20,352 nucleotides of DNA, taken from IMG/VR virus record IMGVR_UViG_3300010367_000170; one strand, written 5' to 3'. Under the pieces are notes generated by a model. The model made no database searches. It saw only the letters and a program-made list of their open reading frames with translations, and was not told where the DNA came from. The position numbers and the translations under genes were made by a program. Source of the DNA: a virus. Its lineage: Duplodnaviria > Heunggongvirae > Uroviricota > Caudoviricetes. How positions within the stretch are numbered: position 1 is the first letter of the stretch; each line of letters begins with the position of its first letter. Of this stretch, positions 3,539 to 13,988 are shown piece after piece.

Positions 3539-3937
3539 TCAGTCCCACCACGACCCCAACCGGTCCACAAGCCTGTGCAACGCGGCCTGCACCTTCTCCT
3601 GCTGCTCCGCCGTCGCCGCGTATGCGAACTTGTCGTAACCCGCCAGATCCGAACGGATCCCCTCCAGATACTCCCCCCACTCCTTCTCGCAGTCGCACCC
3701 CTCACTACCAGGAGCCGCGTGCGAACACGGGTAACCGCATCCGTACTCCAACATCTTCTTGGCTGCGGCCTCCACCAACGCCACCAGGAACGTATCGAAA
3801 CTCCACCACCAAAGGTCCGGGACGAAATCACCGTTGTCGGTGAACAGCGGCACCAAATCCTTCGGCATGGAAGGCAGCGGCGGCTCCGAGGTCGGCTTGT
3901 AGTTCGGGTTGACGATCGGGCTGTCCAAATCGCTCAC
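3539..3937 (-). CDS. Hypothetical phage protein (132 aa)
   Basis: GTG 3937 with GGAGG SD, just downstream of the terminator; Trp/acidic-rich with a C-x3-C-x8-CxC patch. Confidence 0.6.
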   Translation of the reverse strand: MSDLDSPIVNPNYKPTSEPPLPSMPKDLVPLFTDNGDFVPDLWWWSFDTFLVALVEAAAKKMLEYGCGYPCSHAAPGSEGCDCEKEWGEYLEGIRSDLAGYDKFAYAATAEQQEKVQAALHRLVDRLGSWWD

Positions 3938-3952
3938 GCTTTCCTCCAGACG

Positions 3953-3991
3953 AAAAAGGGCGGGCACCTCGCGATGGGAGGTGCCCGCCCT
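3953..3991 (-). terminator. Intrinsic terminator of the Ro/TROVE transcript
   Basis: 14-bp perfect stem agggcgggcacctc/gaggtgcccgccct followed by a U-tract on the minus strand, 6 nt after the TROVE stop. Confidence 0.8.
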
Positions 3992-3997
3992 AGCCTG

Positions 3998-5620
3998 CTA
4001 GTTGTCGATCTCCCACGGCCAACCGGCGTCACGGCCCCGCGACAACAAGTCCATCATCGTGAACATGGCGTCGGAGAAACCGCCGATCTCGAACCGGTTC
4101 GGGTCGGAGGTGTTGATGGACGTGGACGCGTAGCCGGAGGTGTTGATACCGAAGACCGGAACGTCCCTCGGAACCGAGTTCGACACCGACGCCCCGCCCC
4201 AGCCCGACGACAGGTGCGTCTGCATGTCGGAGATGATCACCACGCGCTTGTGGATCGTCTCACGGAACGTCGCCCGCACCGCCTCCACCGTCTTCGTGCC
4301 GTGACCCACCGTGCCGACCTTCGCGCAGAAGCTGTCGATCTGCTTCAACGCCGACCCGCCCTTGACCAGGTTGTGCGGGAACACCACGTTGCCGTAGCCG
4401 TCACCGGCGAAGCCGTACAGCTCCACGTCGTTGCCGCGCATCGCCAACGCCACACCGAACAGCGCGCCGACGTCCACGTGCCGCACCTTCGACTTCTCCG
4501 ACACCGTGTCCAACATCGAACCGGAAGTGTCCACCAGCACCAGCGTCGAACCGGAGAACTCCGGCAGGTTCCCGCACGCCGCATCCAAGCCCTTGTCCAA
4601 CGCGTGGCCCCACCGCAACGACGGAGCAGCCCGGTACGCCGACAACAGCCGGTACGGGAACACCCGCGCCTTCCGGATGTCCTCCGGGTTGGACAACTTC
4701 TCGCACACCTGCGCCGCGACCTTGTCCGAGACCTTGGCCTCATCAAAGTTGCGCAGGTTCCGCATCAGCGCGAACGCGCCCATGGACGGGATGATCGCCT
4801 CCCACGCCTTCGCGTCCATCGGACCCTGAAGCCACCCGGCCAGCGACTCCCACGTCATACCAGCCTCAGCCAGGCGCTCGGAGCCGTCGGCGGACAGCAA
4901 CACCTTCCGGCGCTCACCGACCGGCATCTCCATCAGAGCCTGCCGCGCCGCCAGCGTCTTGTTGCCCTCCGGCAGACGCACATCCGACCGGTTGTGACGC
5001 CGGTCCAGCGCGTAGCGGAACAGCTCCCCCTGCCACGGCTTGTCATCCGCCGGAGACGGGTGCACCAAGTCGATGACGTCACCGAACCGGTAGGCGCTGT
5101 TGTCGGAGTCGTACTTCAGCAGGTTCTTGCCGTTGTACAGCCGCCGAACAGCGTCGGCCACACCGCGCTTCACCGGCTTCGGCAGCTTCCGGCCGTAGTG
5201 AGACGTCCAGTACGACAACAACTCACCCGGCTCGTCAGCGCGCTGGCAGGCGGCGTCGATGAGGGTGCGCCCAGCCGGGGTCTGCTTCGCGTCCAGGCGC
5301 GCCTTCACCGCCTCGCAGGCGGCCACGACAGACGCCGAGCGCATGTTGGCCTTGGTGCGCAGCCACAGCACAAACCCGTGCATCCAGCCGTAGTCCTCCA
5401 CGGCGACCTTACGAACCAGGTCCCGGAAACGGGCATCACGGGCAGACGCCGACTCGTAAAACGTGGACTCGCCCACCATGTTGGTGACAGCCAGCAGCAG
5501 CAGAGCTGACTGGTCGTCGTGGCTCCAAGCCAAACCGCCCTCGTGGGTGCGGGCCGGTGCGGTCGTGGCCATCGGGGACTTCACCGACGGCTGCGCACCC
5601 TTGGTGTTGAACTTGCTCAT
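3998..5620 (-). CDS. rsr: Ro60-related RNA-binding protein (TROVE plus vWA domain), 540 aa
   Basis: Hallmarks THEGG, LAVTNMVGESTFYESA, ALMRNLRNF, vWA MIDAS LVDTSGSM and IISDMQT. ATG 5620 with SD AAGGAGG. Confidence 0.93.
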   Translation of the reverse strand: MSKFNTKGAQPSVKSPMATTAPARTHEGGLAWSHDDQSALLLLAVTNMVGESTFYESASARDARFRDLVRKVAVEDYGWMHGFVLWLRTKANMRSASVVAACEAVKARLDAKQTPAGRTLIDAACQRADEPGELLSYWTSHYGRKLPKPVKRGVADAVRRLYNGKNLLKYDSDNSAYRFGDVIDLVHPSPADDKPWQGELFRYALDRRHNRSDVRLPEGNKTLAARQALMEMPVGERRKVLLSADGSERLAEAGMTWESLAGWLQGPMDAKAWEAIIPSMGAFALMRNLRNFDEAKVSDKVAAQVCEKLSNPEDIRKARVFPYRLLSAYRAAPSLRWGHALDKGLDAACGNLPEFSGSTLVLVDTSGSMLDTVSEKSKVRHVDVGALFGVALAMRGNDVELYGFAGDGYGNVVFPHNLVKGGSALKQIDSFCAKVGTVGHGTKTVEAVRATFRETIHKRVVIISDMQTHLSSGWGGASVSNSVPRDVPVFGINTSGYASTSINTSDPNRFEIGGFSDAMFTMMDLLSRGRDAGWPWEIDN

Positions 5621-5668
5621 TACAGTTCCCTCCTTGTTTGTGGCGGAGGGAGAAGGCAACGCGGTGAC

Positions 5669-5778
5669 GCCCGAGATCCAGTCAGCTGCGGTGACACCGA
5701 CCGGCGAACCGGACGGTTTCAGGGGTTGAACCTGACCTTGTAAGGATTACCGAAGTAACCGCAGCTTACGCACCGGGC
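5669..5778 (-). ncRNA. Y-RNA-like gene A (T-arm plus UUCG hairpin, no clear D arm)
   Basis: Terminal helix GCCCG-GUGCGUAAGCUGCGG / CCGCAGCUGACUGGAUCU-CGGGC, shared UACUUC linker, T-arm UCAGG-UUCAACC-CCUGA; directly upstream of rsr. Confidence 0.75.
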
Positions 5779-5792
5779 ATCGGCGCGTTTCC

Positions 5793-5932
5793 CCTCCCGA
5801 GATCCAAACGGCTGCGGTCAGCTAGGGCAGGATTCGAACCTGCGACCTTTCCGCTCGCGCGGAACGCTCTACCAACTGAGCTACCCGGATGGTTGTTGTA
5901 TCCGAAGTAACCGCTGCCTACGCACCGGGAGG
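5793..5932 (-). ncRNA. Y-RNA-like gene B (D arm, GNRA-capped arm, T arm in normal tRNA order)
   Basis: Same terminal motifs GGUGCG and UGGAUCUC. Inner GCUC-AGUUGGUA-GAGC, UUCCGC-GCGA-GCGGAA, GCAGG-UUCGAAU-CCUGC. Confidence 0.8.
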
Positions 5933-5943
5933 TGCGTGTTTAG

Positions 5944-6033
5944 TTATTCGCCCTTGCAGCAGCCGCACTCGCCGCAGTGCATCGCCAGGCCGCAGTTGCA
6001 GCCCCAAGGACGCCATCTGATCCAGAACTTCAT
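5944..6033 (-). CDS. 29-aa Cys-rich micropeptide MKFWIRWRPWGCNCGLAMHCGECGCCKGE
   Basis: ATG preceded by GGAGGAGAAGC; 6 Cys; fits exactly in the gap between Y RNAs B and C. Confidence 0.5.
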   Translation of the reverse strand: MKFWIRWRPWGCNCGLAMHCGECGCCKGE

Positions 6034-6060
6034 GCTTCTCCTCCAGGCTTCGAACTGAAA

Positions 6061-6167
6061 TCCCCTGAGATCAAGTCGGTGACGGGGTGCCCAGCCAATG
6101 GGCCACCCCCGCGAGGTGGGGGTGTTTGGATTCGAACCGAAGTATCCGTCACTGTCGCACCAGGGGA
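6061..6167 (-). ncRNA. Y-RNA-like gene C (YrlA-like; short T-arm, closed acceptor-like hairpin, D arm)
   Basis: UCCCCUG-GUGCG / UGAUCUC-AGGGGA ends; GG-UUCGAAU-CC; CACCCCC/GGGGGUG hairpin; GCCC-AUUGGCU-GGGC. Confidence 0.8.
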
Positions 6168-6186
6168 AAGCTTGTTCGGTTGTGGC

Positions 6187-6328
6187 GGTCCTGAGTTCCA
6201 AGACGGCTTTGGGCTTACGTCCGTTGCTCTACCAGATTGAGCCACCGTCCGAGGGTGCCGGACGGGCTGGATTTGAACCAGCAACCCACGGCTCCAAGAG
6301 AAGTATCCAATGCCTACGCACCAGGACC
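6187..6328 (-). ncRNA. Y-RNA-like gene D (YrlA-like circularly permuted tRNA module)
   Basis: T arm GCUGG-UUCAAAU-CCAGC, then 7-bp acceptor-like CCGUCCG/CGGACGG closed by a loop, then UG-GCUC-AAUCUGGUA-GAGC D arm; terminal motifs conserved. Confidence 0.85.
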
Positions 6329-6340
6329 GCAAAGGTTTTG

Positions 6341-6482
6341 GCCTGCCAGAGATCCAAACGACTTGGGTAACGTTGACGTGCTGTCCATTACACCACCACC
6401 CCACGAGTGGGGTGGGCCGGAATCGAACCGGCACCTCCGGATCCGTATTCCGAAGTAACCCATGTCTGCGCACCTGGCAGGC
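6341..6482 (-). ncRNA. Y-RNA-like gene E (YrlA-like circularly permuted tRNA module)
   Basis: GCCUGCCAG-GUGCG / UGGAUCUC-UGGCAGGC ends; GCCGG-UUCGAUU-CCGGC; CCACCCC/GGGGUGG closed acceptor-like stem; D-like GUGU-AAUGGAC-AGCAC. Confidence 0.85.
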
Positions 6483-6550
6483 GCGTTGTTGTTCACCCCT
6501 GAACGGGGTGCGCCGTCTCCCGGATCGGGGGGGACGGGAGACGACGCGGG

Positions 6551-6625
6551 TAGCGGCGACGGGATTTGAACCCGCGATCTTCAGATTGAAAGTCTGACGA
6601 GCTTTCCAGACAGCTCCACACCGCC
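6551..6625 (-). tRNA. tRNA-Glu (TTC)
   Basis: Full cloverleaf; TCAGA-CT-TTC-AA-TCTGA; T loop TTCAAAT. Confidence 0.93.
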
Positions 6626-6754
6626 TTGCATGTCGGGTACCGAATCTCCGACTCCCTGGCCAACGAACGACTCCCTACCCTCACGGGCAGCCAGGCCCTT
6701 ACGCAGCTCTGCCGGTCCCTCCAACACCCGTGAACCCTTGTTGGAGGGACCAGG

Positions 6755-6828
6755 AGCCGTCACCGAGGTTCGAACTCGGAACACGTTCTTACCAAGAACG
6801 TAGCGTTGCCAGTTACGCCCACAACGGC
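6755..6828 (-). tRNA. tRNA-Thr (GGT)
   Basis: Cloverleaf; CGTTC-TT-GGT-AA-GAACG. Confidence 0.9.
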
Positions 6829-6968
6829 TTGTCCCGCGCACCCAACTGAACCGACTCCCCGTAGGGGTCTGCTCCACACCTGAACTTGTGCTCACCGGCG
6901 CGGGACGGTGAGCGTGCGCCTCAGACTGGTTCAGATGGCAACTTCTTACCGGCTGTTCCGCTCGCCGG

Positions 6969-7103
6969 TCACGGCTTCTTGCTCTTCTGCTGGCCTACCT
7001 TGCTCCAGGACACACCGGGGACCGGCATGCCACCCGGGAACAGGTGCGGGAACTTCCGTGCCCGCGCCAACATCTTCTTGCGCTTGTTCCGGCTGTAACT
7101 CAC
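6969..7103 (-). CDS. 44-aa highly basic small protein MSYSRNKRKKMLARARKFPHLFPGGMPVPGVSWSKVGQQKSKKP
   Basis: GTG preceded by AGGAGGAGGAGAA; lies in a tRNA-free gap; K/R-rich with no acidic residues. Confidence 0.6.
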   Translation of the reverse strand: MSYSRNKRKKMLARARKFPHLFPGGMPVPGVSWSKVGQQKSKKP

Positions 7104-7124
7104 TTCTCCTCCTCCTCTGTAACC

Positions 7125-7214
7125 GGGCTGGATCCCCGCAGGAGTCGAACCTGCCCTAGGAGTTGACGCAGGTTATCGGCCTACGCCGCTGGCCCTTCAG
7201 CTAAGGTCCAGCCC
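7125..7214 (-). ncRNA. Atypical tRNA-like element (CC-GAT-AA loop, long variable region, extended bulged acceptor helix)
   Basis: T arm GCAGG-TTCGACT-CCTGC; GTAGG-CCGATAA-CCTGC; ends GGGCTGGACCTT/GGGGATCCAGCCC pair over about 12 bp. Confidence 0.5.
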
Positions 7215-7216
7215 TG

Positions 7217-7288
7217 TACCGCACGCGAGACTTGAACTCGCAGAACCTGCTTGGAAGGCAGGCGGGTTGCCAATTACCCCAGTGCGGC
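7217..7288 (-). tRNA. tRNA-Gly (TCC)
   Basis: Cloverleaf; CCTGC-CT-TCC-AA-GCAGG. Confidence 0.92.
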
Positions 7289-7389
7289 ACACCCACCGTC
7301 CCCAGTTTCTGTGGGGGCGGGTGGTGCAGCAGACTTTGCGCTCAGGCGTCTACCGGTCCTGCTTCTTCCCCTCCGAGGAGGGACGCGCG

Positions 7390-7464
7390 TAGTCCGTACG
7401 GGATTTGAACCCGTGGTCTTCACCTTGAGAGGGTGACGAGATAGGCCAGCTACTCCAACGGACC
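7390..7464 (-). tRNA. tRNA-Glu (CTC)
   Basis: Cloverleaf; TCACC-CT-CTC-AA-GGTGA. Confidence 0.92.
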
Positions 7465-7469
7465 TCGCG

Positions 7470-7542
7470 CTGCGTCGGCAGGCTTCGAACCTGCATTGTC
7501 CAAGTTCAAAGCCTGGGGTCCTGCCAGTTAGACGACGACGCA
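7470..7542 (-). tRNA. tRNA-Gln (TTG)
   Basis: U1-A72, G73; CCAGG-CT-TTG-AA-CTTGG. Confidence 0.92.
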
Positions 7543-7547
7543 TAGCG

Positions 7548-7621
7548 CTGCACTGTCAGGATTCGAACCTGAAACCACCCGATTCAGAGCCGGGAGCGCT
7601 GCCAGATTGCGCCACAGTGCA
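7548..7621 (-). tRNA. tRNA-Gln (CTG)
   Basis: U1-A72, G73; CCCGG-CT-CTG-AA-TCGGG. Confidence 0.92.
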
Positions 7622-7897
7622 TTGCGCGGACTTCGGTCTGAGCCGTCCGCTGAGCCCGATGGACTTCACGCGTAGCCGTCTGCCCTGGGGTCTGGCTTGG
7701 CCGTATACCCCATTAGGCGACCTGTTCAACATACCGGCCCGTACGTCCGGCACCTCCGGGGATAACCCTCCAGGCGCTTCCCAGCCTCCCGGTCTTAGCG
7801 CGACCGGTAGTAACAGCTCCACGGCTCAAATCCCTGTCAGGATCCCCTGTCATAAGCGTGCAGGACTCTGGCCTCGACATGGGCCAGGCTGCGCGCG

Positions 7898-7978
7898 TGG
7901 GAGTGGTAGGTGTCGAACCTACAATGCTCGAAAGCGCGGGCTTTACAGGCCCGCTGGCAGACCGCTGCACTCACTCCC
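7898..7978 (-). tRNA. tRNA-Tyr (GTA)
   Basis: CGGGC-CT-GTA-AA-GCCCG; long variable arm GCT-TTCG-AGC. Confidence 0.9.
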
Positions 7979-8020
7979 GAAACCCCTTACGGGGCCGGTG
8001 TTGACGTTCCTCGCTAGGTG

Positions 8021-8099
8021 AAGCCCGGAGCGGAGTCGAACCGCTATCCACGCGCTTTGCAGGCGCGCTCTAGATACCGTCTAGATGAGGACCCGGGCA
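8021..8099 (-). tRNA. tRNA-Cys (GCA), atypical D arm
   Basis: CGCGC-CT-GCA-AA-GCGCG, U73. D region contains TCTAGA-CGGTA-TCTAGA; 1:72 mismatch. Confidence 0.75.
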
Positions 8100-8190
8100 A
8101 CGGAGCCGTCCGCCCGGTCCAGCCACGGTCAGCCTCCGAGGGGGTGGAGGCAATATCGGCAGCTTGCGCATCGGACCGGTACGGACGACG

Positions 8191-8262
8191 TGCCTCCGGT
8201 GGGATTCGAACCCACGTCGAACCACTTAGAAGGTGGTCTCCCATCCTCTGGGCGACGGAGGC
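8191..8262 (-). tRNA. tRNA-Arg (TCT)
   Basis: Cloverleaf; ACCAC-CT-TCT-AA-GTGGT. Confidence 0.9.
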
Positions 8263-8403
8263 GAGCGGGTCCACCGTCCTCAGATCCCCCGCCGTCGCTA
8301 GGGATTGTTCGATTCGCGGTGGACCCTAAAGTCCAGGAGGGGGAGGTACGTGGGCCGCTGGCCACGGTAGGCCACGCTTCTCGGCCAGTCCCTTCTGGAC
8401 TTG

Positions 8404-8477
8404 CGCTCGTGACGGGACTTGAACCCGTGACCTCCTGATTGACAATCAGGTGCCCTAACCGTCTGGGCCACACGAGC
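8404..8477 (-). tRNA. tRNA-Asp (GTC)
   Basis: CCTGA-TT-GTC-AA-TCAGG; G73. Confidence 0.93.
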
Positions 8478-8509
8478 CGGACGCAGGCGAACCTGCGCTT
8501 TTGTTCTAC

Positions 8510-8632
8510 CTAGTTCCCCTTCGTGCAGGTGTGCGGTCCCTTCCTGAGGCACACGATGTGCGAGTGGACAGCGCAAGCGAAGCACCCGCACGAACACATA
8601 CAACGCCTAGCCAGCAACAACAGATGTTTCAT
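8510..8632 (-). CDS. 40-aa Cys/His-rich micropeptide MKHLLLLARRCMCSCGCFACAVHSHIVCLRKGPHTCTKGN
   Basis: ATG preceded by GGAGGGAGGAGAAG; 7 Cys and 4 His; fills the gap between tRNA-Lys and tRNA-Asp and is followed by a UUCG hairpin. Confidence 0.5.
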   Translation of the reverse strand: MKHLLLLARRCMCSCGCFACAVHSHIVCLRKGPHTCTKGN

Positions 8633-8647
8633 CTTCTCCTCCCTCCG

Positions 8648-8719
8648 TGCGCCGCGAGGGTGTCGAACCCCCGACCCCTCCGTTAAGAGCGGAGTGCTCT
8701 ACCGTTGAGCTAGCGGCGC
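8648..8719 (-). tRNA. tRNA-Lys (CTT)
   Basis: CTCCG-CT-CTT-AA-CGGAG. Confidence 0.93.
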
Positions 8720-8832
8720 AGGTGAAGCAGGGGCCTGAGTTGAACAGGCCAGCGGGCCGTCGCCCTTTTCTCCTAAGGAACCCACCAAGGGTGCGCGGGA
8801 ATCGAACCCGCCACTGCCGGTTCCCTGCCTCG

Positions 8833-8904
8833 CAGGTCGCCAGGGACTTGAACCCTGTTCCACGGATTAAAAGTCCGTTACATAGCCATACATGCTCGCG
8901 ACCC
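8833..8904 (-). tRNA. tRNA-Lys (TTT)
   Basis: ACGGA-CT-TTT-AA-TCCGT; G73. Confidence 0.88.
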
Positions 8905-9038
8905 ATAAGCCCCACCATTCCGCAGTCAAGAGGAAGGCGGGGAACATTGGGGCCAGGCCAGGGTTCAACCCTTCCCGGAAGCACGGGGTTCGTACGGCCC
9001 AGCCAGGAACAGCCCGGATCAGGGGCTGCTGCTCCAAG

Positions 9039-9113
9039 TAGCGGGGACAGGATTTGAACCTGCGATCTCTGGATTATGAGCCCAGCGGGGACACCGAACT
9101 CCCCCACCCCGCG
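9039..9113 (-). tRNA. tRNA-Met (CAT), initiator-like
   Basis: CGCGGGG 5' end with C1:U72 mismatch; CTGGG-CT-CAT-AA-TCCAG. Confidence 0.88.
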
Positions 9114-9135
9114 TCGGCGCGGCGAACCGCGCTCG

Positions 9136-9207
9136 TGTCCTCGACAGGAATTGAACCTGCGCGCCCCGGGCTTCAACCGGATGCTCTTCCAACTGAGCTA
9201 CAAGGAC
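9136..9207 (-). tRNA. tRNA-Phe (GAA)
   Basis: TCCGG-TT-GAA-GC-CCGGG. Confidence 0.9.
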
Positions 9208-9359
9208 GTTGCCCGCCTACTGAATCAGTGCCGTACCCAAAGGACGTGTCCGGAGATCTCCTCCGGCTCTACAACAGCGGGCCGCATACAACGCACTCCA
9301 AAGGTATGCGAGCTTTGGCCGTCGTCAACGCCCCATCGGTGAGGCGTTGAGCGTGTGCG

Positions 9360-9430
9360 AGCCCTTGGCGGGAATCGAACCCACGTTGCCTCCCTGGCAA
9401 GGAGGTGTCTTGCCGCTAGACGACAAGGGC
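9360..9430 (-). tRNA. tRNA-Gly (GCC)
   Basis: CCTCC-TT-GCC-AG-GGAGG; U73. Confidence 0.93.
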
Positions 9431-9540
9431 GAACATCGTCCGGTAGGTGGTCCCGCTACCGCCACAAACACGGAAACGCGTACGGGCCGTGTTCCGCCAC
9501 CCCTTACCGCCCGTTCAGACCGGACGATGAATTTACTGCG

Positions 9541-9614
9541 AGCCCTGAGCCGGGGTCGAACCGGCGACCTCCGTTTTACGAGAACGGCGCTACTTCCAAC
9601 TGAGCCACCAGGGC
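9541..9614 (-). tRNA. tRNA-Thr (CGT)
   Basis: CCGTT-CT-CGT-AA-AACGG. Confidence 0.92.
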
Positions 9615-9699
9615 GCGGCAGCTGTTGCACAGGGGAACTGCCTACCCCTTCACCACCCCCATCACGGCCTGTCCTCCAACGGCCGTGACGGTTAGTGCG

Positions 9700-9771
9700 T
9701 AGCCCCACCGGGATTCGAACCCAGGCCTGCACCTTCGGAGGGTGCTGCGCTGTCCGCTGCGCTATGGGGCT
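9700..9771 (-). tRNA. tRNA-Arg (CCG)
   Basis: GCACC-CT-CCG-AA-GGTGC. Confidence 0.92.
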
Positions 9772-9908
9772 GTGTTGACCAACTCTCTTACAAGGTTAAG
9801 GCTCTGACTAGGCGCCATACAGCCTTGTAGAGAGGCGGGGGAGGCCACCCACCCTGATCCCGCATTGTCCGCAGCCCCTCGCCGGTCAAGGCTACTCACT
9901 GCGGCATG

Positions 9909-9981
9909 CTGTCCCAGCAGGGTTCGAACCTGCGACCTGAGGATTAACAATCCACTGCTCTGCCTACTGAGCTATAGGACA
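9909..9981 (-). tRNA. tRNA-Asn (GTT)
   Basis: GTGGA-TT-GTT-AA-TCCTC (one mismatch); G73. Confidence 0.9.
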
Positions 9982-10108
9982 ACGCCCCGCAAAGTTGCGC
10001 ACCCTCGCGGGGTTGTTGAGATGGGCGGGAACTGAACCAGCCTCTGAGCCTGCCGATTCGGGCGCCCCTAGTTCTCAGTTCTTAAGGGTCCGCTATTCCC
10101 ATCTCTCG

Positions 10109-10181
10109 TGCGTCTACAGGGACTCGAACCCCGAACCTGCTGGGTGTAGGCCAGCTGCTCTTCCAATTGAGCTACAGACGC
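10109..10181 (-). tRNA. tRNA-Val (TAC) with C33
   Basis: GCTGG-CC-TAC-AC-CCAGC; otherwise canonical cloverleaf. Confidence 0.85.
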
Positions 10182-10277
10182 TCCCGGGAGGGGGCAGCGC
10201 CGAACGCGCTGCCCTAGTCCTCCCTTGTAGGTATACCGGGCCTGGGGTATACCAGCCCAGGTGATCGACACTTGCCC

Positions 10278-10346
10278 GTGAGGCGGCTGGAATCGAACCA
10301 GCTTCGGGAGTCTTCGCGAAACCCTACGTAACCAACGTCCACCTCC
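10278..10346 (-). pseudogene. Degenerate tRNA-like element, TC-GCG-AA loop (Arg GCG-like)
   Basis: Perfect T arm GCTGG-TTCGATT-CCAGC; 6-bp acceptor; short D arm ACGT-TGGTT-ACGT; C33. Confidence 0.5.
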
Positions 10347-10400
10347 AGCGGGTAGCGAACCCGCCTTCACCGGGTTCAGGACGCGTTCCTGAGTACCGGC

Positions 10401-10476
10401 TGGTGTCCCCGGGAGGAATCGAACCTCCAACCTCCTGATTCGTAGTCAGGTGCCCTATCCGTTGGGCCACGGAGAC
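10401..10476 (-). tRNA. tRNA-Arg (ACG), CCA encoded
   Basis: CCTGA-CT-ACG-AA-TCAGG; ends A-CCA. Confidence 0.95.
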
Positions 10477-10635
10477 ATGACGATTATCGCAGGCCAGGAA
10501 CCGTCGCCCGGTAGTAGCGCAAGATCCATTTGCGCCCTGCTTGTCACGCACATTCGCAGCAAAATCAGGGGACACCCTGGGGTACTTGGGATAACCGGAG
10601 GTGTTGCTGCCCGGAGCGTGACCGCACCGTTCCCG

Positions 10636-10704
10636 TGGTCAGTGCGGGATTCGAACCCGCATCCAGTCACAAGTGGACCCGCTCAGCCGTTGAGCTACCT
10701 GACC
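10636..10704 (-). pseudogene. tRNA-like element with aberrant anticodon arm (GGTC-CACTTGT-GACT)
   Basis: Canonical D arm (GCTC-AACGGCT-GAGC) and T arm, 6/7 acceptor pairs; 4-bp anticodon stem, no U33. Confidence 0.6.
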
Positions 10705-10714
10705 CTGCTGTACG

Positions 10715-10786
10715 TGGAAATGAAGGGACTCGAACCCTTGACCCGACCGGCACATATCCGGCGCTCTGCCGCTGAGCTACATCCCC
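10715..10786 (-). tRNA. Non-canonical tRNA: Ala-type acceptor (G3:U70, A73) with AT-ATG-TG anticodon loop
   Basis: GGGGATG/CATTTCC-A acceptor; canonical D and T arms; CCGG-ATATGTG-CCGG. Confidence 0.65.
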
Positions 10787-10901
10787 TAGGTGGCCGGGCT
10801 GTACGGGACTTACCGGCCGTGCATGCTGCCGCTGACAGAAGCGTTCCCGTCTGGTTCCTGGCGTACCGGCAATCTAAGGCACCGACGTCCCGTCACCATT
10901 G

Positions 10902-10975
10902 TGCTCACAGAGGGATTTGAACCCTCACTTGCGGCGGTTTGAGCGCCGTGCCTCTGCCGATTGGGCTACGTGAGC
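10902..10975 (-). tRNA. tRNA-Leu (CAA), short variable loop
   Basis: CGGCG-CT-CAA-AC-CGCCG; variable region only CAAGT; A73. Confidence 0.9.
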
Positions 10976-11083
10976 TGGAAGCGCAGTCCCGTGCGGGAGG
11001 AGAAGTCACCGCACGGGACTACTTACTCCAAGACCTTTGCTGCCGCCGGAGGAAAGCCTGTAAGCCGACAGGTCTCGGAGTCG

Positions 11084-11157
11084 TTGCCACGGCTGGATTC
11101 GGACCAGCGACATACGCCTTATCAGAGCGCTGCTCTACCAGGCTGAGCTACGTGGCA
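11084..11157 (-). tRNA. tRNA-Ile (GAT)
   Basis: GCGCT-CT-GAT-AA-GGCGT; T-loop variant TCCGAAT. Confidence 0.88.
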
Positions 11158-11278
11158 TTGTCGGACGGCCTGCGCGAGGCAGGCCACCGACGTCTACGTT
11201 CATTTACATCATCGTCGCTGTTGAGTTCTCAAGGTTCCAGGAGCTTCGTGCCGACGTACAGCGCGCTCCAAACGTGCG

Positions 11279-11349
11279 CGTCCTTGAAGGGATTCGAACC
11301 CTCGCTTGCCCACCAGGAACTGGGCGCTCTACCGTTAAGCTACAAGGAC
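11279..11349 (-). tRNA. tRNA-like, probably Arg(CCT)-derived, with an irregular 8-nt anticodon loop
   Basis: Perfect acceptor GTCCTTG/CAAGGAC, D and T arms; CCCA-GTTCCTGG-TGGG. Confidence 0.55.
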
Positions 11350-11363
11350 ACCTTGTTCAGTTG

Positions 11364-11426
11364 TACGGGGACCGGAGTCGAACCGGAACCTCAGCCGTGC
11401 ACTGCTACTCTCCCACCCGGACCCGC
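11364..11426 (-). pseudogene. Highly degenerate tRNA-like remnant
   Basis: T arm CCGG-TTCGACT-CCGG and a partial acceptor GCGGG/CCCGT; D and anticodon arms are poor. Confidence 0.35.
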
Positions 11427-11524
11427 TTGGCAGGCCCGTTTTCCCCTCGCGGGGACACCCAACCAGTTCGGACCTGGCGGTTCCGGCGTTGAAACTCCAC
11501 GGGCCAACAGGGTCGTCGCCTTCG

Positions 11525-11580
11525 TGGACCCAGAGGGTTTCGAACCCTCCCACGCGCGTCAGCCCCCAGGGCTTGGGCCC
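11525..11580 (-). ncRNA. 56-nt mini-tRNA: full acceptor with G3:U70 and A73 plus T arm, no anticodon arm
   Basis: GGGCCCA/TGGGTCC-A; GAGGG-TTCGAAA-CCCTC; only one small hairpin (AGCCC-TGG-GGGCT) between them. Confidence 0.55.
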
Positions 11581-11611
11581 GTATTCAGTTGTTGGCTCCG
11601 TCCTACCGGAG

Positions 11612-11684
11612 GGTGATGTGCGGGAATCGAACCCGCTGCTGCCTGGATCACAACCAGGTCCCCGACCGGAGGGGCTACACCACC
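11612..11684 (-). tRNA. tRNA-His (GTG)
   Basis: G-1:C73 pair; CCTGG-TT-GTG-AT-CCAGG. Confidence 0.88.
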
Positions 11685-11690
11685 AAGAGG

Positions 11691-11771
11691 TCTCGCCAGA
11701 GATCCAAGGCGACTCCGGATCTGAATTCATTCCCAAAACGAAGGAACCGGGGTCATGCGCACCTGGCGAGA
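11691..11771 (-). ncRNA. Y-RNA-like gene F (minimal: terminal helix only, no tRNA module)
   Basis: UCUCGCCAG-GUGCGCAUGACCCCGG-UUCCUUC ... CCGGAGUCGCCUUGGAUCUC-UGGCGAGA; same motifs as copies A-E. Confidence 0.7.
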
Positions 11772-11790
11772 TCTGTGAAGTTTTAGGTTG

Positions 11791-11939
11791 TGCATCCCCC
11801 AGAGGTCCAGTCGATCAGGCGATCGTAGGCGCTCTGCCGCTGAGCTACAGTCCCGGTTTCCCGGCACCGGCAGGATTCGAACCTGCGACATCCCGCTTAA
11901 AAGGCGAAGAACTCCTGGTCTGCGCACCTGGGGGGTGCA
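11791..11939 (-). ncRNA. Y-RNA-like gene G (complete four-arm permuted tRNA with a Lys UUU-type anticodon loop)
   Basis: CCCCCAG-GUGCG / UGGACCUC-UGGGGG ends. UUCGC-CUUUUAA-GCGGG, AUGUC, GCAGG-UUCGAAU-CCUGC, GAAA-closed acceptor-like helix, UA-GCUC-AGCGGCA-GAGC. Confidence 0.82.
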
Positions 11940-11986
11940 TCGTCTTCCCTTTGGGGCTTTCGCTCCGTCGTTCCGGCGATGTCTTT

Positions 11987-12016
11987 ACGATACCGCGTTT
12001 CGGCTCCGGGCGTCTA
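11987..12016 (-). promoter_or_regulatory. Candidate sigma70/HrdB-type promoter for the RNA array
   Basis: TAGACG-18 nt-TATCGT on the minus strand, about 50 nt upstream of Y RNA G; motif match only. Confidence 0.35.
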
Positions 12017-12541
12017 ATCGAAATCCAACACCTGGACCGGTTTCACGTTCCCAGCATCCCCGTCTCGGAGCCGGATAGCAAGATCACCGTCGGGGGCTTC
12101 GAAGACTTCGAACTTGGACGGGCCGCGACGGCGCCAACCCGGATCCCGGATGTCCAGCACCTTCTCAGGCGAAGCCTGACCGGAAGCCAGCTCCAGAAGC
12201 AACGGCGTGTCCTCCGGATACAAGTCCATAGGGCGCACCGCGAAACCCTCCAGAACAGGCGTCTCAAGCCAAGCCACCGGGTTGCCAACCCCGTGGCGGG
12301 ACAGCATGTCCGTGACAGCCAGAAGATGCGCCACCTTCATCGCGTCGGAGAACCACGCCTTGTCGCCGCGCCTCCAACTCTGGACGTCGAAGACGTTGGT
12401 GTTCAACATCCTCGCGACGTCCCTCAGGGCGAAGCCCATGTCCACCAGCTCCTCCACCGAAGCGGCCTTACCGTTCCTGCGACGCTCCATCTGAAGCTTG
12501 TGGAACGTTGACACGTCCTCAGAAGTCACCAACGTCATCAC
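12014..12541 (-). CDS. HTH protein resembling Xre/MbcA/ParS-type antitoxins
   Basis: HTH-like 'GFALRDVARMLNTNVFDVQSWRRG' followed by 'NPVAWLETPV..RPMDL'; SD AAGGAGG; family call by pattern only. Confidence 0.5.
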   Translation of the reverse strand: MMTLVTSEDVSTFHKLQMERRRNGKAASVEELVDMGFALRDVARMLNTNVFDVQSWRRGDKAWFSDAMKVAHLLAVTDMLSRHGVGNPVAWLETPVLEGFAVRPMDLYPEDTPLLLELASGQASPEKVLDIRDPGWRRRGPSKFEVFEAPDGDLAIRLRDGDAGNVKPVQVLDFD

Positions 12542-12719
12542 CTCCTTTGGGTGGCTCCACGCAACCGTGGATCTTGCGGTAATCGTTCAGGTCAGGGTTG
12601 GGATGCGCCTCGCCGCGCAACGAGTACTCGCACTCCTCGGACAGCTGCCGAGCCTGCTCCGGAGACAGACAAGACGGCCAGTCGCAGATACGGCACACCC
12701 GGAACTTAGGAGCCGTCAT
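12519..12719 (-). CDS. Small Cys-containing hypothetical protein (66 aa)
   Basis: CRIC..PSC..C; overlaps both neighbouring genes, as typical of phage operons. Confidence 0.5.
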   Translation of the reverse strand: MTAPKFRVCRICDWPSCLSPEQARQLSEECEYSLRGEAHPNPDLNDYRKIHGCVEPPKGGDDVGDF

Positions 12720-12936: not shown

Positions 12937-13151
12937 CACTGCTCCTCCGGGAAGACTATGGTGACGACTGCCGATGCAACCAGGCGTTCGACCTCTGCCA
13001 TGAGGTCGAACCATTGGTCGTCGGTCAGCCAGTTGTTCTCTGGAATCTCGGCCAGCGTGTCATTGGCGGGGAACGGCGCGTTGAGACGGTTGAGGATCAC
13101 CAGCCGAGCTAGCTGCTGAACGCGCAGCGGAGCAATATCAGAAGGCGCCAT
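12936..13151 (-). CDS. Hypothetical protein (71 aa, MAPSDIAPL...)
   Basis: Start chosen at the ATG overlapping the end of the HAD gene; coupled to the downstream gene. Confidence 0.55.
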   Translation of the reverse strand: MAPSDIAPLRVQQLARLVILNRLNAPFPANDTLAEIPENNWLTDDQWFDLMAEVERLVASAVVTIVFPEEQ

Positions 13152-13758
13152 CAGCGACCTGGAAGCAAGCCAGTCCCAGTTTCCGCCACAGGTACACGCA
13201 GCGGTCACGGTCGTCCAGGACCAGGTGCGGATGCCAGAGGTCCCGGACGTGTTTGTCGAAGAGTTCCAGCTTCACGATGTCGTCACCGCGCCGGTCCCCT
13301 CCGGGGCGCATGTGCAGCTCGTCATACGGAACCTGGAACTTCTTCAGCCACCGCTCCGTGTGGGGCCGGTACTCCTCTTGGCGGCCGGACAGCAGGATGA
13401 TCCGCTGGCCGTCTCTGCGGAACAAGTCCAGGGCGTAGACGACCTGCTTGTACTCGGTGTCGGTTTCGACCTTGTCGAAGTCGTACGGGCCACGGTTGGT
13501 GTGCAGGGCCAGGGTGCCGTCGATGTCGCAGACGATAGCTGGGGGCTGCCCGTTGAACTCGTACGTCCTGGCGAACTCCACATCGACGGCGAGGCCGGTG
13601 AACCTGTGGCTGGGCTCTGTGGCGATGATGGCGCTGCGGGCGTCGTTCTCCACGTCCGTGATGCGACGGGAGACGCCGGGGAGCAGGTGCCTGCCGGTCT
13701 GAACCTTCCAGGCCCACTCCACGCCGTCGGAGTCCACGGTGACGGTGTAGTCGCTCAC
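13138..13758 (-). CDS. HAD-family phosphatase of the Pnkp 3'-phosphatase type with a short N-terminal extra domain
   Basis: DIDGTL (DxDxT), LLSGR, LHMRP..DRRGDDIVKLEL, DDRDRCVYLWRKLGL: motif order as in the C-terminal domain of T4-type polynucleotide kinase/phosphatase. No P-loop. GTG overlaps the upstream TGA. Confidence 0.85.
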   Translation of the reverse strand: MSDYTVTVDSDGVEWAWKVQTGRHLLPGVSRRITDVENDARSAIIATEPSHRFTGLAVDVEFARTYEFNGQPPAIVCDIDGTLALHTNRGPYDFDKVETDTEYKQVVYALDLFRRDGQRIILLSGRQEEYRPHTERWLKKFQVPYDELHMRPGGDRRGDDIVKLELFDKHVRDLWHPHLVLDDRDRCVYLWRKLGLACFQVADGAF

Positions 13759-13988
13759 TTGTACATCCATGTCCACTCGGAGGCGTTTGGATCCCACTCC
13801 ACGTCCAGGCTGTAACACTCTCCGTTGAAGGCCCACTCCACGGAATAGGACGCGCCTTCTTCATCGACGTCGGGGCAGACGGCGAAGCCGAGAGAGTGTG
13901 AGCGGTTCAGCAGCGCCGCAAGGTCTTTGGCGACAAGAGCGGCGCTTACGGCAACGTGCTGCTGAAAGTTCTCTCTGATATCGCTCAT
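13755..13988 (-). CDS. Hypothetical protein (77 aa, MSDIRENF...)
   Basis: ATGA overlap upstream and GTGA overlap downstream. Confidence 0.6.
   Translation of the reverse strand: MSDIRENFQQHVAVSAALVAKDLAALLNRSHSLGFAVCPDVDEEGASYSVEWAFNGECYSLDVEWDPNASEWTWMYK

What the first reader, a model, noticed from the sequence alone, without database searches (positions are those of the whole stretch)
5669..6482. One Ro-binding scaffold carrying different tRNA-mimic cassettes, including opposite arm orders
Copies C, D and E show T arm, loop-closed acceptor stem, then D arm (circular permutation). Copy B shows D arm, an anticodon-position hairpin capped by a GNRA tetraloop (GCGA), then T arm, which is the normal tRNA order. 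Copy A has T arm plus a UUCG hairpin and no D arm. This looks like modular swapping of effector domains on a constant scaffold, each possibly recruiting a different partner (inference). I do not recall a non-permuted form in described YrlA RNAs, but could not check.
Basis: partly seen in the sequence, partly recalled or inferred. Interest (0 to 1): 0.78.

Follow-up and report, generated by a model that had tools for sequence, protein, structure and literature searches.

The report
Re-wired tRNA mimic on Y RNA
An uncultured soil phage carries, in front of its Ro60 gene, a row of small "Y" RNAs that share one protein-docking stem but hold tRNA look-alikes wired in different ways, and one of them (copy B) belongs to a conserved layout, seen in at least 18 related phage contigs, that I did not find described in print.

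Summary
Five minus-strand RNAs at 5666-6482 share one terminal stem (GGUGCG ... UACUUC ... GAUCUC) directly upstream of a TROVE+vWA (Ro60) gene. Two more copies lie beyond a 26-tRNA array. Copies D, E and C have T arm, closed acceptor hairpin, then D arm. Copy A has a T arm and a UUCG-capped hairpin but no D arm. Copy B has D arm, GCGA-capped anticodon-position stem, then T arm.

B is therefore not an unpermuted tRNA. It is a second circular permutation, joined to the scaffold between the T stem and the acceptor 3' strand.

B is not an accident. I found 17 further B-type RNAs in viral and metagenome contigs. Ro60 is encoded close by on the same strand in 11 of the 14 B loci tested by tblastn. 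Covariation is strong (94.9% of cells paired against 70% in shuffles). In 15 of 18, the acceptor loop begins with RCCA exactly where a tRNA 3' end would be.

D. radiodurans Yrn1 already has a D-like/anticodon/T order, so I rate this a new variant of a known kind. Function is inferred, not shown. The scan noted the same layout earlier on another contig (e1-3283710).

The parts
3998..5620 (-). Ro60/Rsr orthologue (540 aa, TROVE + vWA)
   Evidence: Pfam TROVE E=1e-12, VWA_2 E=3e-4. Best cultured-phage relatives are 'Ro-like RNA binding protein' genes of Streptomyces, Gordonia and Arthrobacter phages, 38-44% identity.
3957..3991 (-). Intrinsic terminator-like hairpin just after the Ro60 stop codon
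   Evidence: 14-bp stem (11 G-C pairs) followed by a T run. No sigma-70-like promoter was found at 3900-12600, and the only other minus-strand terminator-like site between 3991 and 12600 is a weak 5-bp one at 10579-10566.
5666..5781 (-). Y RNA copy A: scaffold, UAC-UUCG-GUA mini-hairpin, CCUU/AAGG hairpin, T arm, 9-position UUCG-capped hairpin; no D arm
   Evidence: Consensus fold with the orthologues in L214 and L169 shows compensatory changes.
5793..5932 (-). Y RNA copy B (B-type): the whole RNA
   Evidence: tRNA model 46 bits. Model R1 gives 144.9 bits, though the window sequence is in the seed. Structure supported by covariation in 17 sequences.
5921..5926 (-). GGUGCG, the conserved 5'-strand motif of the presumed Ro60 site in B; invariant in the 14 B-type RNAs of A1 (two distant members have GUUGCG and GGUGCC)
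   Evidence: Invariant columns in A1. Present in all 7 window copies.
5886..5904 (-). B: loop-closed acceptor hairpin (5' strand CGGAU = tRNA 68-72; loop ACAACAACC; 3' strand AUCCG = tRNA 1-5)
   Evidence: helix 3. Base-pair probability in the single-sequence ensemble 0.90-0.99. In 15 of 18 relatives the loop begins RCCA; the window has ACAA.
5884..5885 (-). B: G6 and G7, paired with C67 and C66 at 5825-5826 just after the T stem, completing a 7-bp composite acceptor stem
   Evidence: Helix 4 is 100% paired, with double changes in distant members. The nearest-neighbour model does not predict it (p=0).
5866..5881 (-). B: D arm (GCUC AGUUGGUA GAGC), preceded by U8 and A9
   Evidence: The arm is invariant in 16 of 17 sequences, and L017 shows compensatory changes.
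5849..5864 (-). B: anticodon-position hairpin, 6 bp capped by the GCGA tetraloop (5855-5858)
   Evidence: All 6 pairs show compensatory changes. Loop length in relatives is 3-7 nt.
5827..5848 (-). B: variable region AGGUC plus T arm (GCAGG UUCGAAU CCUGC)
6061..6167 (-). Y RNA copy C: T arm starting inside the CUUC motif (with a 51:63 mismatch), 7-bp acceptor hairpin, GCCC..UGG..GGGC D-like arm
   Evidence: Eight orthologues aligned; acceptor-hairpin and scaffold helices covary.
6185..6330 (-). Y RNA copy D: classical YrlA layout (4-bp closing helix, T, 7-bp acceptor hairpin, D)
   Evidence: Rfam YrlA 42.3 bits over model positions 23-89, below the gathering score of 69.
6341..6482 (-). Y RNA copy E: 5-bp/7-nt-loop hairpin, T arm, 7-bp acceptor hairpin, D arm (GUGUAAUGGACAGCAC)
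   Evidence: Rfam YrlA 21.9 bits..
5944..6033 (-). 29-aa Cys-rich ORF between copies C and B, with a GGAGGAG ribosome-binding site
   Evidence: Conserved at the same place in L214, with C-terminal RPWGCNCGL.MHCG.CGCCKG.
6549..11683 (-). Array of 26 tRNA genes lying between the two groups of Y RNAs
   Evidence: ARAGORN and Rfam. Only 1 of 24 encodes CCA.
11691..11771 (-). Sixth copy: short hairpin-only Y RNA (YrlB-like)
11796..11934 (-). Seventh copy: YrlA-type Y RNA (hairpin, T arm, acceptor hairpin, D arm)

Best explanation
The region is an array of Ro60-partner Y RNAs of an uncultured actinophage-like virus. It is probably co-transcribed with the tRNA array and the Ro60 gene and then cut into single RNAs. 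The co-transcription is inferred from a single strong terminator after Ro60 and no internal promoter-like sites.

All copies share a two-helix terminal stem whose internal loop (5' GGUGCG-N-AG, 3' UUGAUCUC) is the presumed Ro60 docking site. Different tRNA-derived cassettes begin right after a conserved UACUUC.

Copy B belongs to a distinct, conserved subclass. It is a complete tRNA cloverleaf with all tertiary-contact nucleotides kept. The acceptor stem is closed by a loop that usually begins RCCA. The anticodon stem is capped by a short, freely varying loop. The scaffold leaves the cloverleaf through the acceptor 3' strand next to the T stem, at about positions 66-68. In classical YrlA the scaffold takes the place of the anticodon stem.

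So the same L-shaped body is hung on Ro60 from a different corner. In B the anticodon-stem end is free and the acceptor end with its NCCA-like loop is presented differently.

The most likely role (inferred) is that of other Y RNAs: a tether or gate that brings a tRNA-recognising host protein to Ro60, or keeps it away from tRNAs, with different cassettes offering different faces. Cleavage of the acceptor loop by RNase P, as shown for M. smegmatis YrlA, would free an encoded CCA end. That step is possible but untested.
For: Ro60 identity is shown by Pfam TROVE+vWA.

Scaffold:
- 7 motif hits in the window against 1.06 expected.
- Helix P1 is 98% paired and P2 90% paired, with compensatory changes in 6 of 7 and 7 of 8 pairs.
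- Each copy's own P2 strands pair better than mismatched partners: -13.5 against -8.9 kcal/mol, p=4e-35, n=134.
- The same scaffold occurs 2-6 times upstream of Ro60 in related viral contigs.

B-type class:
- 18 distinct RNAs were found.
- 94.9% of cells are paired against 70.1% in shuffles and 43-50% when partners are slid.
- 31 of 37 pairs show compensatory change.
- Ro60 is encoded on the same strand in 11 of the 14 B-type loci tested by tblastn: downstream in 10, upstream in L181. The other 3 loci gave no hit. L004 and L017 were fetched through their Ro60 match, with the B-type upstream of it. L284 was not tested.

Acceptor mimic:
- The strand pairing with positions 1-5/6 is followed at once by RCCA in 15 of 18.
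- Hairpin pairs plus pairs to the CC after the T stem sum to 7 bp in most members.
- Only 1 of 24 tRNA genes in the window encodes CCA, so the RCCA is not a passive tRNA-gene relic.

tRNA core: U8, A14, G15, G18, G19, A21, A44-G46, C48, G53-A58, C61 and C62 are invariant in A1 (numbering is the established tRNA convention).

Precedents from the literature: Y RNAs are modular and encoded upstream of rsr on the same strand, co-transcribed with a tRNA in D. radiodurans, and M. smegmatis YrlA is cleaved by RNase P and receives CCA (PMC4201824). YrlA folds as a tRNA-like L with a closed acceptor stem (10.1101/312249). A phage Ro60 binds phage Y-like RNAs and host PNPase in vitro (PMC12135203).
Against: - There are no expression, processing or Ro60-binding data for any of these RNAs.
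- The presumed Ro site (GGUGCG-N-AG) is not the published GNCGAAN0-1G motif. No copy reaches the Rfam YrlA gathering score, and B does not hit YrlA at all.
- For B alone, the proposed cloverleaf is 10.8 kcal/mol above the minimum-free-energy fold. The D stem has probability 0.27 and the two G6/G7:C66/C67 pairs 0.
- The D stem is invariant in 16 of 17 sequences, so covariation says little about it.
- G6 and G7 could instead wobble-pair with the UU of CUUC.
- The alignment used for the pair counts was fitted to the model.
- The window's own copy has ACAA, not RCCA.
- No protein other than Ro60 is shared by the B-type loci within the flanks held, so there is no genomic hint of a specific partner.
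Confidence: 0.7

Rival explanations
1. B-type RNAs are precursors. RNase P cuts the acceptor loop 5' of position 1 and exonucleases trim the other end back to the encoded RCCA. The product is a two-piece RNA held together by the scaffold and acceptor pairs, with a true free CCA end, which is the active form. It could be a substrate or bait for the CCA-adding enzyme, a synthetase or EF-Tu. This refines the main explanation and does not replace it.
For: RCCA lies exactly at positions 73-76 in 15 of 18, followed by 4-8 loop nucleotides that would act as a 5' leader. The composite acceptor stem is 7 bp, which Chen et al. give as the reason M. smegmatis YrlA is an RNase P substrate; that RNA is cleaved and receives CCA in vivo (PMC4201824). 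The phage's own tRNA genes lack CCA, so the encoded CCA looks selected.
Against: The window copy (ACAA), L004 (ACUC) and L211 lack a proper CCA. The scaffold leaves the acceptor stem at bp 5-7 and may hinder RNase P. There is no conserved -1 nucleotide in the loop. No identity element is conserved: G3:U70 occurs in one lineage only (L217 and its near-copy L220), and there is no anticodon.
Confidence: 0.3
2. The tRNA-like Y RNAs are decoys in phage-host conflict. They soak up or misdirect host tRNA-targeting defence enzymes (anticodon nucleases, acceptor-end modifying toxins) or bring them to Ro60 and exonucleases. Different wirings expose or hide different tRNA ends.
For: The array sits in a tRNA and RNA-repair neighbourhood: 26 tRNAs and a PNKP-phosphatase-domain protein. 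Anticodon loops are replaced by nuclease-insensitive tetraloops in many B-types. A Ro60-like phage protein encoded next to a tRNA block counters the ppl defence system in Bas63 (PMC11482910). phiLo Ro60 with its Y-like RNAs binds host PNPase in vitro (PMC12135203).
Against: The support is entirely circumstantial. Bas63 gp130 is a distant Ro60-like protein of a different phage group, and ppl is proposed to act on DNA. No defence-related gene is conserved beside B-type RNAs.
Confidence: 0.15
3. The shared stem is not a Ro60 site but a processing or insulation element of a long tRNA-array transcript, and its association with Ro60 is only positional.
For: The copies lie at both ends of the tRNA array and within one apparent transcription unit. 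The motif differs from GNCGAAN0-1G. No binding data exist.
Against: In 40 loci fetched only through their Ro60 gene, the stem recurs immediately upstream on the same strand. Hairpin-only copies with no tRNA part keep it, as YrlB-type RNAs do. By my recollection of human Y RNA sequences (not tested here), its 5' strand matches the metazoan Ro site GGUCCGAAGG at all but one position.
Confidence: 0.07
4. Copy B is a decayed tRNA gene or a chance recombinant between a tRNA and a Y RNA, with no function.
For: It scores as a tRNA (46 bits) with a broken acceptor stem and a 2-nt 'anticodon'. A 57-nt stretch is 85% identical to tRNA-Ile of three Streptomyces phages.
Against: 18 distinct orthologues keep every helix through compensatory changes while loop sequences drift. 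The closest relative (Ro60 82% identical) has the same array order C-ORF-B-A-Ro60.
Confidence: 0.03

Closest known systems
YrlA Y RNAs (Rfam RF02553; S. Typhimurium, M. smegmatis, mycobacteriophage ET08; Chen et al. 2014 PMC4201824; Wang et al. 2018 bioRxiv 10.1101/312249)
   Same: Encoded upstream of Ro60 on the same strand. A terminal stem carries the Ro site and a YUAY-like UAC follows it. The tRNA-like T arm, loop-closed acceptor stem and D arm keep tRNA tertiary nucleotides. Several Y RNAs occur per locus. Copies D, E and C (and the copy at 11796-11934) have this T-AS-D order.
   Different: In B the order is AS-D-anticodon stem-V-T. The scaffold joins at the T/acceptor junction instead of replacing the anticodon stem, the anticodon stem is a closed hairpin, and the acceptor loop usually encodes RCCA. 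B gives no YrlA hit, and no window copy reaches the gathering score. The 5' motif is GGUGCG-N-AG, not GNCGAAN0-1G.
D. radiodurans Yrn1 (Chen et al. 2014, PMC4201824)
   Same: Described as having D-like features, then a 5-bp 'anticodon arm' with a 6-nt loop, then a T arm. The T/D orientation is opposite to YrlA, as in B. Both strands of the Ro-site helix are recognisable.
   Different: By the paper's description, Yrn1 has no full D arm, no dihydrouridine was detected, and it has no variable region. No closed acceptor hairpin with NCCA is described. I could not compare sequences because none was held here.
M. smegmatis YrlA processing (Chen et al. 2014)
   Same: A 7-bp acceptor hairpin; that RNA is cut by RNase P and gains CCA. 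This is the precedent for a Y RNA with a tRNA-like free end.
   Different: There CCA is added after cleavage. In B-types RCCA is encoded in the loop, and cleavage of B-types is untested.
Circularly permuted tRNA genes of Cyanidioschyzon merolae and an archaeon (cited in 10.1101/312249)
   Same: The tRNA 3' part is encoded before the 5' part, with the acceptor stem initially closed by a loop.
   Different: Those are matured into decoding tRNAs. B-types have no conserved anticodon loop (3-7 nt) and keep a Ro-type scaffold.
Thermus phage phiLo Yrl1/Yrl2 with phage Ro60 (PMC12135203)
   Same: Phage-encoded Y-like RNAs upstream of a phage Ro60, shown to bind it and host PNPase in vitro.
   Different: They are described as stem-bulge-stem RNAs with a CGAA motif. 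No tRNA-like cassette is reported.

Membership tests
Y RNA (Ro60-partner ncRNA, general) | Encoded next to the Ro60/rsr gene on the same strand | tested here: met
   All 7 copies are on the minus strand upstream of the TROVE+vWA gene. The same holds in related loci.
Y RNA (Ro60-partner ncRNA, general) | Long stem formed by the 5' and 3' ends | tested here: met
   P1 and P2 covary.
Y RNA (Ro60-partner ncRNA, general) | Conserved Ro60-binding motif in the stem (GGUCCGA in animals and D. radiodurans; GNCGAAN0-1G in YrlA) | tested here: inconclusive
   GGUGCG-N-AG is conserved and resembles both motifs but matches neither exactly.
Y RNA (Ro60-partner ncRNA, general) | Bound and stabilised by Ro60 | not testable with these tools
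   Needs immunoprecipitation or a gel-shift assay.
YrlA (Rfam RF02553) | Score at or above the family's gathering threshold (69 bits) | tested here: not met
   D scores 42.3 bits (partial), E 21.9 bits, and A, B and C give no hit at E<=10.
YrlA (Rfam RF02553) | Order T arm, closed acceptor stem, D arm, enclosed by the scaffold or anticodon-like helix | tested here: not met
   Met by copies D, E and C. Not met by B, whose order is AS-D-AC-T, nor by A, which has no D arm.
YrlA (Rfam RF02553) | tRNA-like D and T loops with nucleotides for the elbow and Levitt pair | tested here: met
   G18, G19, U54-U55-C56 and G15:C48 are invariant in B-types.
tRNA (Rfam RF00005) | Score above the gathering threshold (29 bits) | tested here: met
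   B scores 46 bits.
tRNA (Rfam RF00005) | 7-nt anticodon loop with a usable anticodon | tested here: not met
   The window has a GCGA tetraloop; relatives have loops of 3-7 nt with no conserved sequence. ARAGORN reports a 2-nt 'anticodon'.
tRNA (Rfam RF00005) | Acceptor stem formed by the 5' end and the strand after the T arm, with a free 3' end | tested here: not met
   In most members only 1-2 pairs (up to 3 in L017) form with the strand after the T arm; the rest form with an upstream strand in a closed hairpin.
D. radiodurans Yrn1-type Y RNA | D-like element, anticodon-like arm, T arm in that order on a Ro-site stem | not tested
   The order agrees with the description in PMC4201824. No Yrn1 sequence or model was available for comparison.

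The most novel reading that the evidence does not exclude
The phage mounts one tRNA body on Ro60 in several orientations: scaffold at the anticodon stem, at the D/anticodon junction, or at the T/acceptor junction. Each Ro60 particle would then capture a different tRNA-acting host factor. The B-type, with its loop-embedded or RNase P-released RCCA, would be a bait for enzymes that act on the tRNA acceptor end, such as RNase P, the CCA-adding enzyme, or acceptor-end toxins of abortive-infection systems. That would make the array a multi-target counter-defence or tRNA-surveillance device.
Probability: 0.15. Interest if true: 0.85.

Novelty: new variant of a known kind. Interest (0 to 1): 0.66.

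Why it matters
What the tRNA-like module of bacterial and phage Y RNAs is for remains an open question. Here nature offers a ready-made comparison. The same Ro60 handle and the same tRNA body are connected at different points of the cloverleaf, side by side in one operon, and each layout is conserved across phages.

That gives a direct experimental route: pull down each RNA, ask what binds, and see which end of the tRNA mimic must be free. The B layout also shows that an NCCA mimic inside a loop is under selection in RNAs that cannot decode. This points to recognition of the acceptor end, not the anticodon.

There is a practical point too. tRNA finders report B-type RNAs as odd tRNAs, so phage 'tRNA' counts may include them.

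Tried and rejected
- **Megablast.** The region found nothing in cultured phages. Distant blastn found only a 57-nt tRNA-Ile-like stretch.
- **Rfam at E<=10.** No family matched the scaffold. The cyano_tmRNA and permuted-tmRNA hits on copy E are by-products of a T arm followed directly by a hairpin.
- **First B-type pattern.** It was too loose, giving 119+ chance hits and none real. Tighter patterns worked.
- **Species-representative genomes.** The strict B pattern gave 18 hits in 185,579 genomes, all chance. No bacterial or prophage B-type was found at that stringency, though divergent ones would be missed.
- **A second shared gene.** All-against-all blastp of ORFs in B-type loci found only Ro60.
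- **RNAalifold on C-type copies.** It did not recover the T stem, which is short and has a mismatch.
- **RCCA pairing with UGG in the 3' scaffold strand.** Rejected, because most relatives have UUGA there.
- **An alanine-type G3:U70 identity.** Rejected; it is present in one lineage only (L217 and its near-copy L220).
- **Whole genome.** None is held for this window.
- **Two reviews.** PMC10870794 and PMC6047535 are not held, so I could not check whether they mention such a layout.
Full report
**What is there**

The window carries a minus-strand gene at 3998-5620 for a 540-aa TROVE+vWA protein, a Ro60/Rsr orthologue. Its nearest cultured relatives are the 'Ro-like RNA binding proteins' of Streptomyces, Gordonia and Arthrobacter phages at 38-44% identity. 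Nothing in the cultured-phage collection matches the DNA itself, and no genome is held for the window.

Upstream on the same strand lie five RNAs:
- A, 5666-5781
- B, 5793-5932
- C, 6061-6167
- D, 6185-6330
- E, 6341-6482

Beyond them come 26 tRNA genes (6549-11683) and then two more copies (11691-11771 and 11796-11934).

The shared motif GGTGCG-N9-14-YTTC occurs 7 times, all on the minus strand and all at these copies. Shuffles give 1.06 on average. A strong terminator-like hairpin follows the Ro60 stop codon (3991-3957). No promoter-like site lies inside 3900-12600. One long transcript that is processed into pieces is therefore plausible. This is an inference; co-transcription of Y RNAs with a tRNA and with each other is documented for D. 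radiodurans and M. smegmatis (PMC4201824).

**The scaffold**

Every copy has the same elements in order:
- a basal helix P1
- a conserved internal loop (5' GGUGCG-N-AG, 3' UUG(G)AUCUC)
- a second helix P2, often with a central A.A mismatch
- a conserved UACUUC, after which the variable insert starts

P1 and P2 differ in sequence between copies but stay complementary. Across 134 copies from the window and related contigs, a copy's own P2 strands pair at -13.5 kcal/mol on average, against -8.9 for mismatched partners (p=4e-35).

In 40 viral contigs fetched only through their Ro60 gene, the same scaffold recurs 2-6 times just upstream of Ro60 on the same strand. The 5' motif is not the published YrlA motif GNCGAAN0-1G. 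By my recollection of human Y RNA sequences (not tested) it is closer to the animal GGUCCGAAGG. Ro60 binding is inferred, not shown.

- **D** aligns to Rfam YrlA model positions 23-89 (closing helix, T arm, acceptor hairpin, D arm) at 42.3 bits. **E** aligns over the full model at 21.9 bits. Both are below the gathering score of 69.
- **C** starts its T arm inside the CUUC motif, has a 7-bp hairpin and a GCCC..UGG..GGGC arm. Eight orthologues share this build, with covariation in the scaffold and the acceptor hairpin.
- **A** has a UAC-UUCG-GUA mini-hairpin, a second small hairpin, a T arm and a 9-position UUCG-capped hairpin, with no D arm. Two orthologues confirm it with compensatory changes.
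- **B** hits the tRNA model at 46 bits in the order D arm, 6-bp stem capped by GCGA, AGGUC, T arm. The tRNA-style acceptor pairing is broken.

Between UACUUC and the D arm, B has a hairpin: CGGAU, a 9-nt loop, AUCCG. Counting back from U8, its 3' strand is tRNA positions 1-5. G6 and G7 can pair with the two C residues that follow the T stem.

The acceptor stem is therefore present, 7 bp long and closed by a loop, as in YrlA. Its 3' strand, however, sits at the 5' side of the cassette. B is a circular permutation of a tRNA broken at about positions 65-68. Classical YrlA is broken at the anticodon loop (10.1101/312249).

The scaffold, the distal acceptor helix and the proximal-acceptor/T stack form a three-way junction. 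There is no linker on the continuous 1-7 strand, which would allow the usual acceptor/T coaxial stack (inference).

**B is a conserved class**

Pattern scans for scaffold-then-D-arm found true relatives in IMG/VR and in metagenomes. A covariance model built from 14 of them (R1) separated 15 close members (117-145 bits) and two distant ones, L017 and L004 (69 and 66 bits), from all other Y RNAs and tRNAs (55 bits or less). A further scan added L284. That makes 18 distinct RNAs.

On the 17-sequence alignment:
- 94.9% of cells are standard pairs, against 70.1% in shuffles and 43-50% when partners are slid by 1-3 columns.
- 31 of 37 pairs show compensatory changes.
- Every helix is covered except the nearly invariant D stem.

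The alignment was fitted to the model, which favours the structure, but the controls are far apart from the observed values.

Ro60 is encoded on the same strand in 11 of the 14 B-type loci tested by tblastn: downstream in 10, and upstream in L181. The other 3 gave no hit. L004 and L017 were fetched through their Ro60 match, with the B-type upstream of it. L284 was not tested.

The closest relative, L214 (Ro60 82% identical), has the same order: C-type, small ORF, B, A, Ro60. Among the 40 loci fetched through Ro60 alone, only 2 carry a B-type, so it is a minority class. The strict pattern found none in 185,579 species-representative genomes.

**Features of the class**

1. In 15 of 18, the strand that pairs with position 1 is followed at once by ACCA or GCCA, the discriminator-CCA of a tRNA. 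The loop then continues for 4-8 nt to position 1. The window copy has ACAA. Only 1 of 24 tRNA genes in the window encodes CCA, so the RCCA is not simply inherited from tRNA genes of this kind of phage.
2. Hairpin pairs plus pairs to the post-T strand add to 7 in most members (5+2, 6+1, 7+0) and to 8 in L017.
3. The anticodon-position stem covaries at all six pairs. Its loop is 3-7 nt with no conserved sequence (GCGA, GAAA-type, UUCG, UCCG, CUAG, CACG, or 7-nt loops). L214 has a 7-nt loop where the window has GCGA. The loop therefore does not act as an anticodon.
4. U8, A14, G15, G18, G19, A21, A44-G46, C48, G53-A58, C61 and C62 are invariant. These are the nucleotides that build the tRNA core and elbow (established tRNA knowledge). 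Selection is on the L-shape and the acceptor end.

**Weak points**

- Folding B alone, the proposed cloverleaf is 10.8 kcal/mol less stable than the minimum-free-energy fold.
- The D stem has probability 0.27 and the G6/G7:C66/C67 pairs 0. P1, P2, the acceptor hairpin, the anticodon hairpin and the T arm are at 0.7-1.0, apart from the two innermost P2 pairs at 0.68 and 0.42.
- Low D-stem probability is common for tRNAs but is still a caveat.
- G6 and G7 could instead wobble-pair with the UU of CUUC.
- There are no expression or binding data.

**Other layouts**

- E and the copy at 11796-11934 carry a 5-bp hairpin with a 7-nt loop before the T arm.
- L001:2295-2398 and L005:3594-3703 have a hairpin, an anticodon-like arm and a T arm but no D arm, which recalls the published description of Yrn1.
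- One copy in L096 has a D arm and no T arm.
- Hairpin-only copies (YrlB-like) are the commonest class.
- A and B in the window have almost identical P2 helices but different cassettes, as expected if cassettes were exchanged or replaced on a duplicated scaffold.

**Comparison with the literature**

Chen et al. 2014 (PMC4201824) describe YrlA as T-AS-D, found it in 22 phages, and note multiple Y RNAs per locus. [quoted passage not shown]

Wang et al. 2018 (10.1101/312249) call YrlA a circularly permuted tRNA with a closed acceptor. The phiLo study (PMC12135203) shows a phage Ro60 binding phage Y-like RNAs and host PNPase. A knockout screen reports that a Ro60-like protein next to the tRNA block of phage Bas63 counters the ppl defence system (PMC11482910).

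I found no paper describing the B layout. Two reviews were not available.

This scan had already noted the same layout on the contig behind L181 (e1-3283710). My result agrees with that note and adds the RCCA and 7-bp composite-acceptor features.

**Verdict**

Modular cassettes on one scaffold are real, and so is the D-before-T order of B. But B is a differently permuted, fully closed tRNA mimic, not an unpermuted one. The idea of different partners per cassette remains untested.

I rate it a new variant of a known kind (Y RNA / YrlA-like), of real interest to RNA biologists because it offers a natural set of rewired tRNA mimics on one Ro60 handle.

Noticed in passing
window 11691-11771 and 11796-11934 (minus strand): Two further Y RNA copies lie on the far side of the 26-tRNA array, one hairpin-only and one YrlA-type. 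The tRNA array is therefore bracketed by Y RNAs.
   Followed up: partly
window 5944-6033 (minus strand); L214 at the same relative place: A 29-aa Cys-rich ORF with a strong ribosome-binding site sits between copies C and B. Its C-terminal half (RPWGCNCGL.MHCG.CGCCKG) is conserved in the closest relative, so it is probably a real small protein. It has no Pfam hit.
   Followed up: partly
window 6549-11683: Only 1 of 24 tRNA genes encodes CCA. Nearly all have C then G after the discriminator. ARAGORN reports a 4-base anticodon (tcct) for 11278-11349 and undetermined identity there.
   Followed up: partly
window 13138-13836, 16778-17821, 19025-19894 (minus strand): The neighbouring genes include a PNKP phosphatase-domain protein (Pfam PF25109, E=2.5e-46), a Tet/JBP-type 2OG-Fe dioxygenase (PF12851) and an amino acid:DNA transferase (PF18724). 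These suggest RNA-end repair and DNA base hypermodification functions in the same phage.
   Followed up: no
L001:2295-2398, L005:3594-3703: These Y RNAs have a hairpin, an anticodon-like arm (5-7 bp stem, 6-7 nt loop) and a T arm but no D arm. The layout recalls the published description of D. radiodurans Yrn1.
   Followed up: no
L096 (minus strand, about 2748-2859): A scaffold copy carries two small hairpins and a D arm but no T arm, the reverse of copy A.
   Followed up: no
window 5810-5818/5910-5918 (B) and the matching P2 strands of A: Copies A and B have nearly identical second scaffold helices (A's 5' strand pairs with B's 3' strand as well as with its own). This points to a recent duplication of the scaffold with different cassettes.
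   Followed up: partly
window 3957-3991 (minus strand): A strong intrinsic terminator-like hairpin (14 bp, T run) directly follows the Ro60 stop codon. It is the only strong one on that strand between 3991 and 12600.
   Followed up: no
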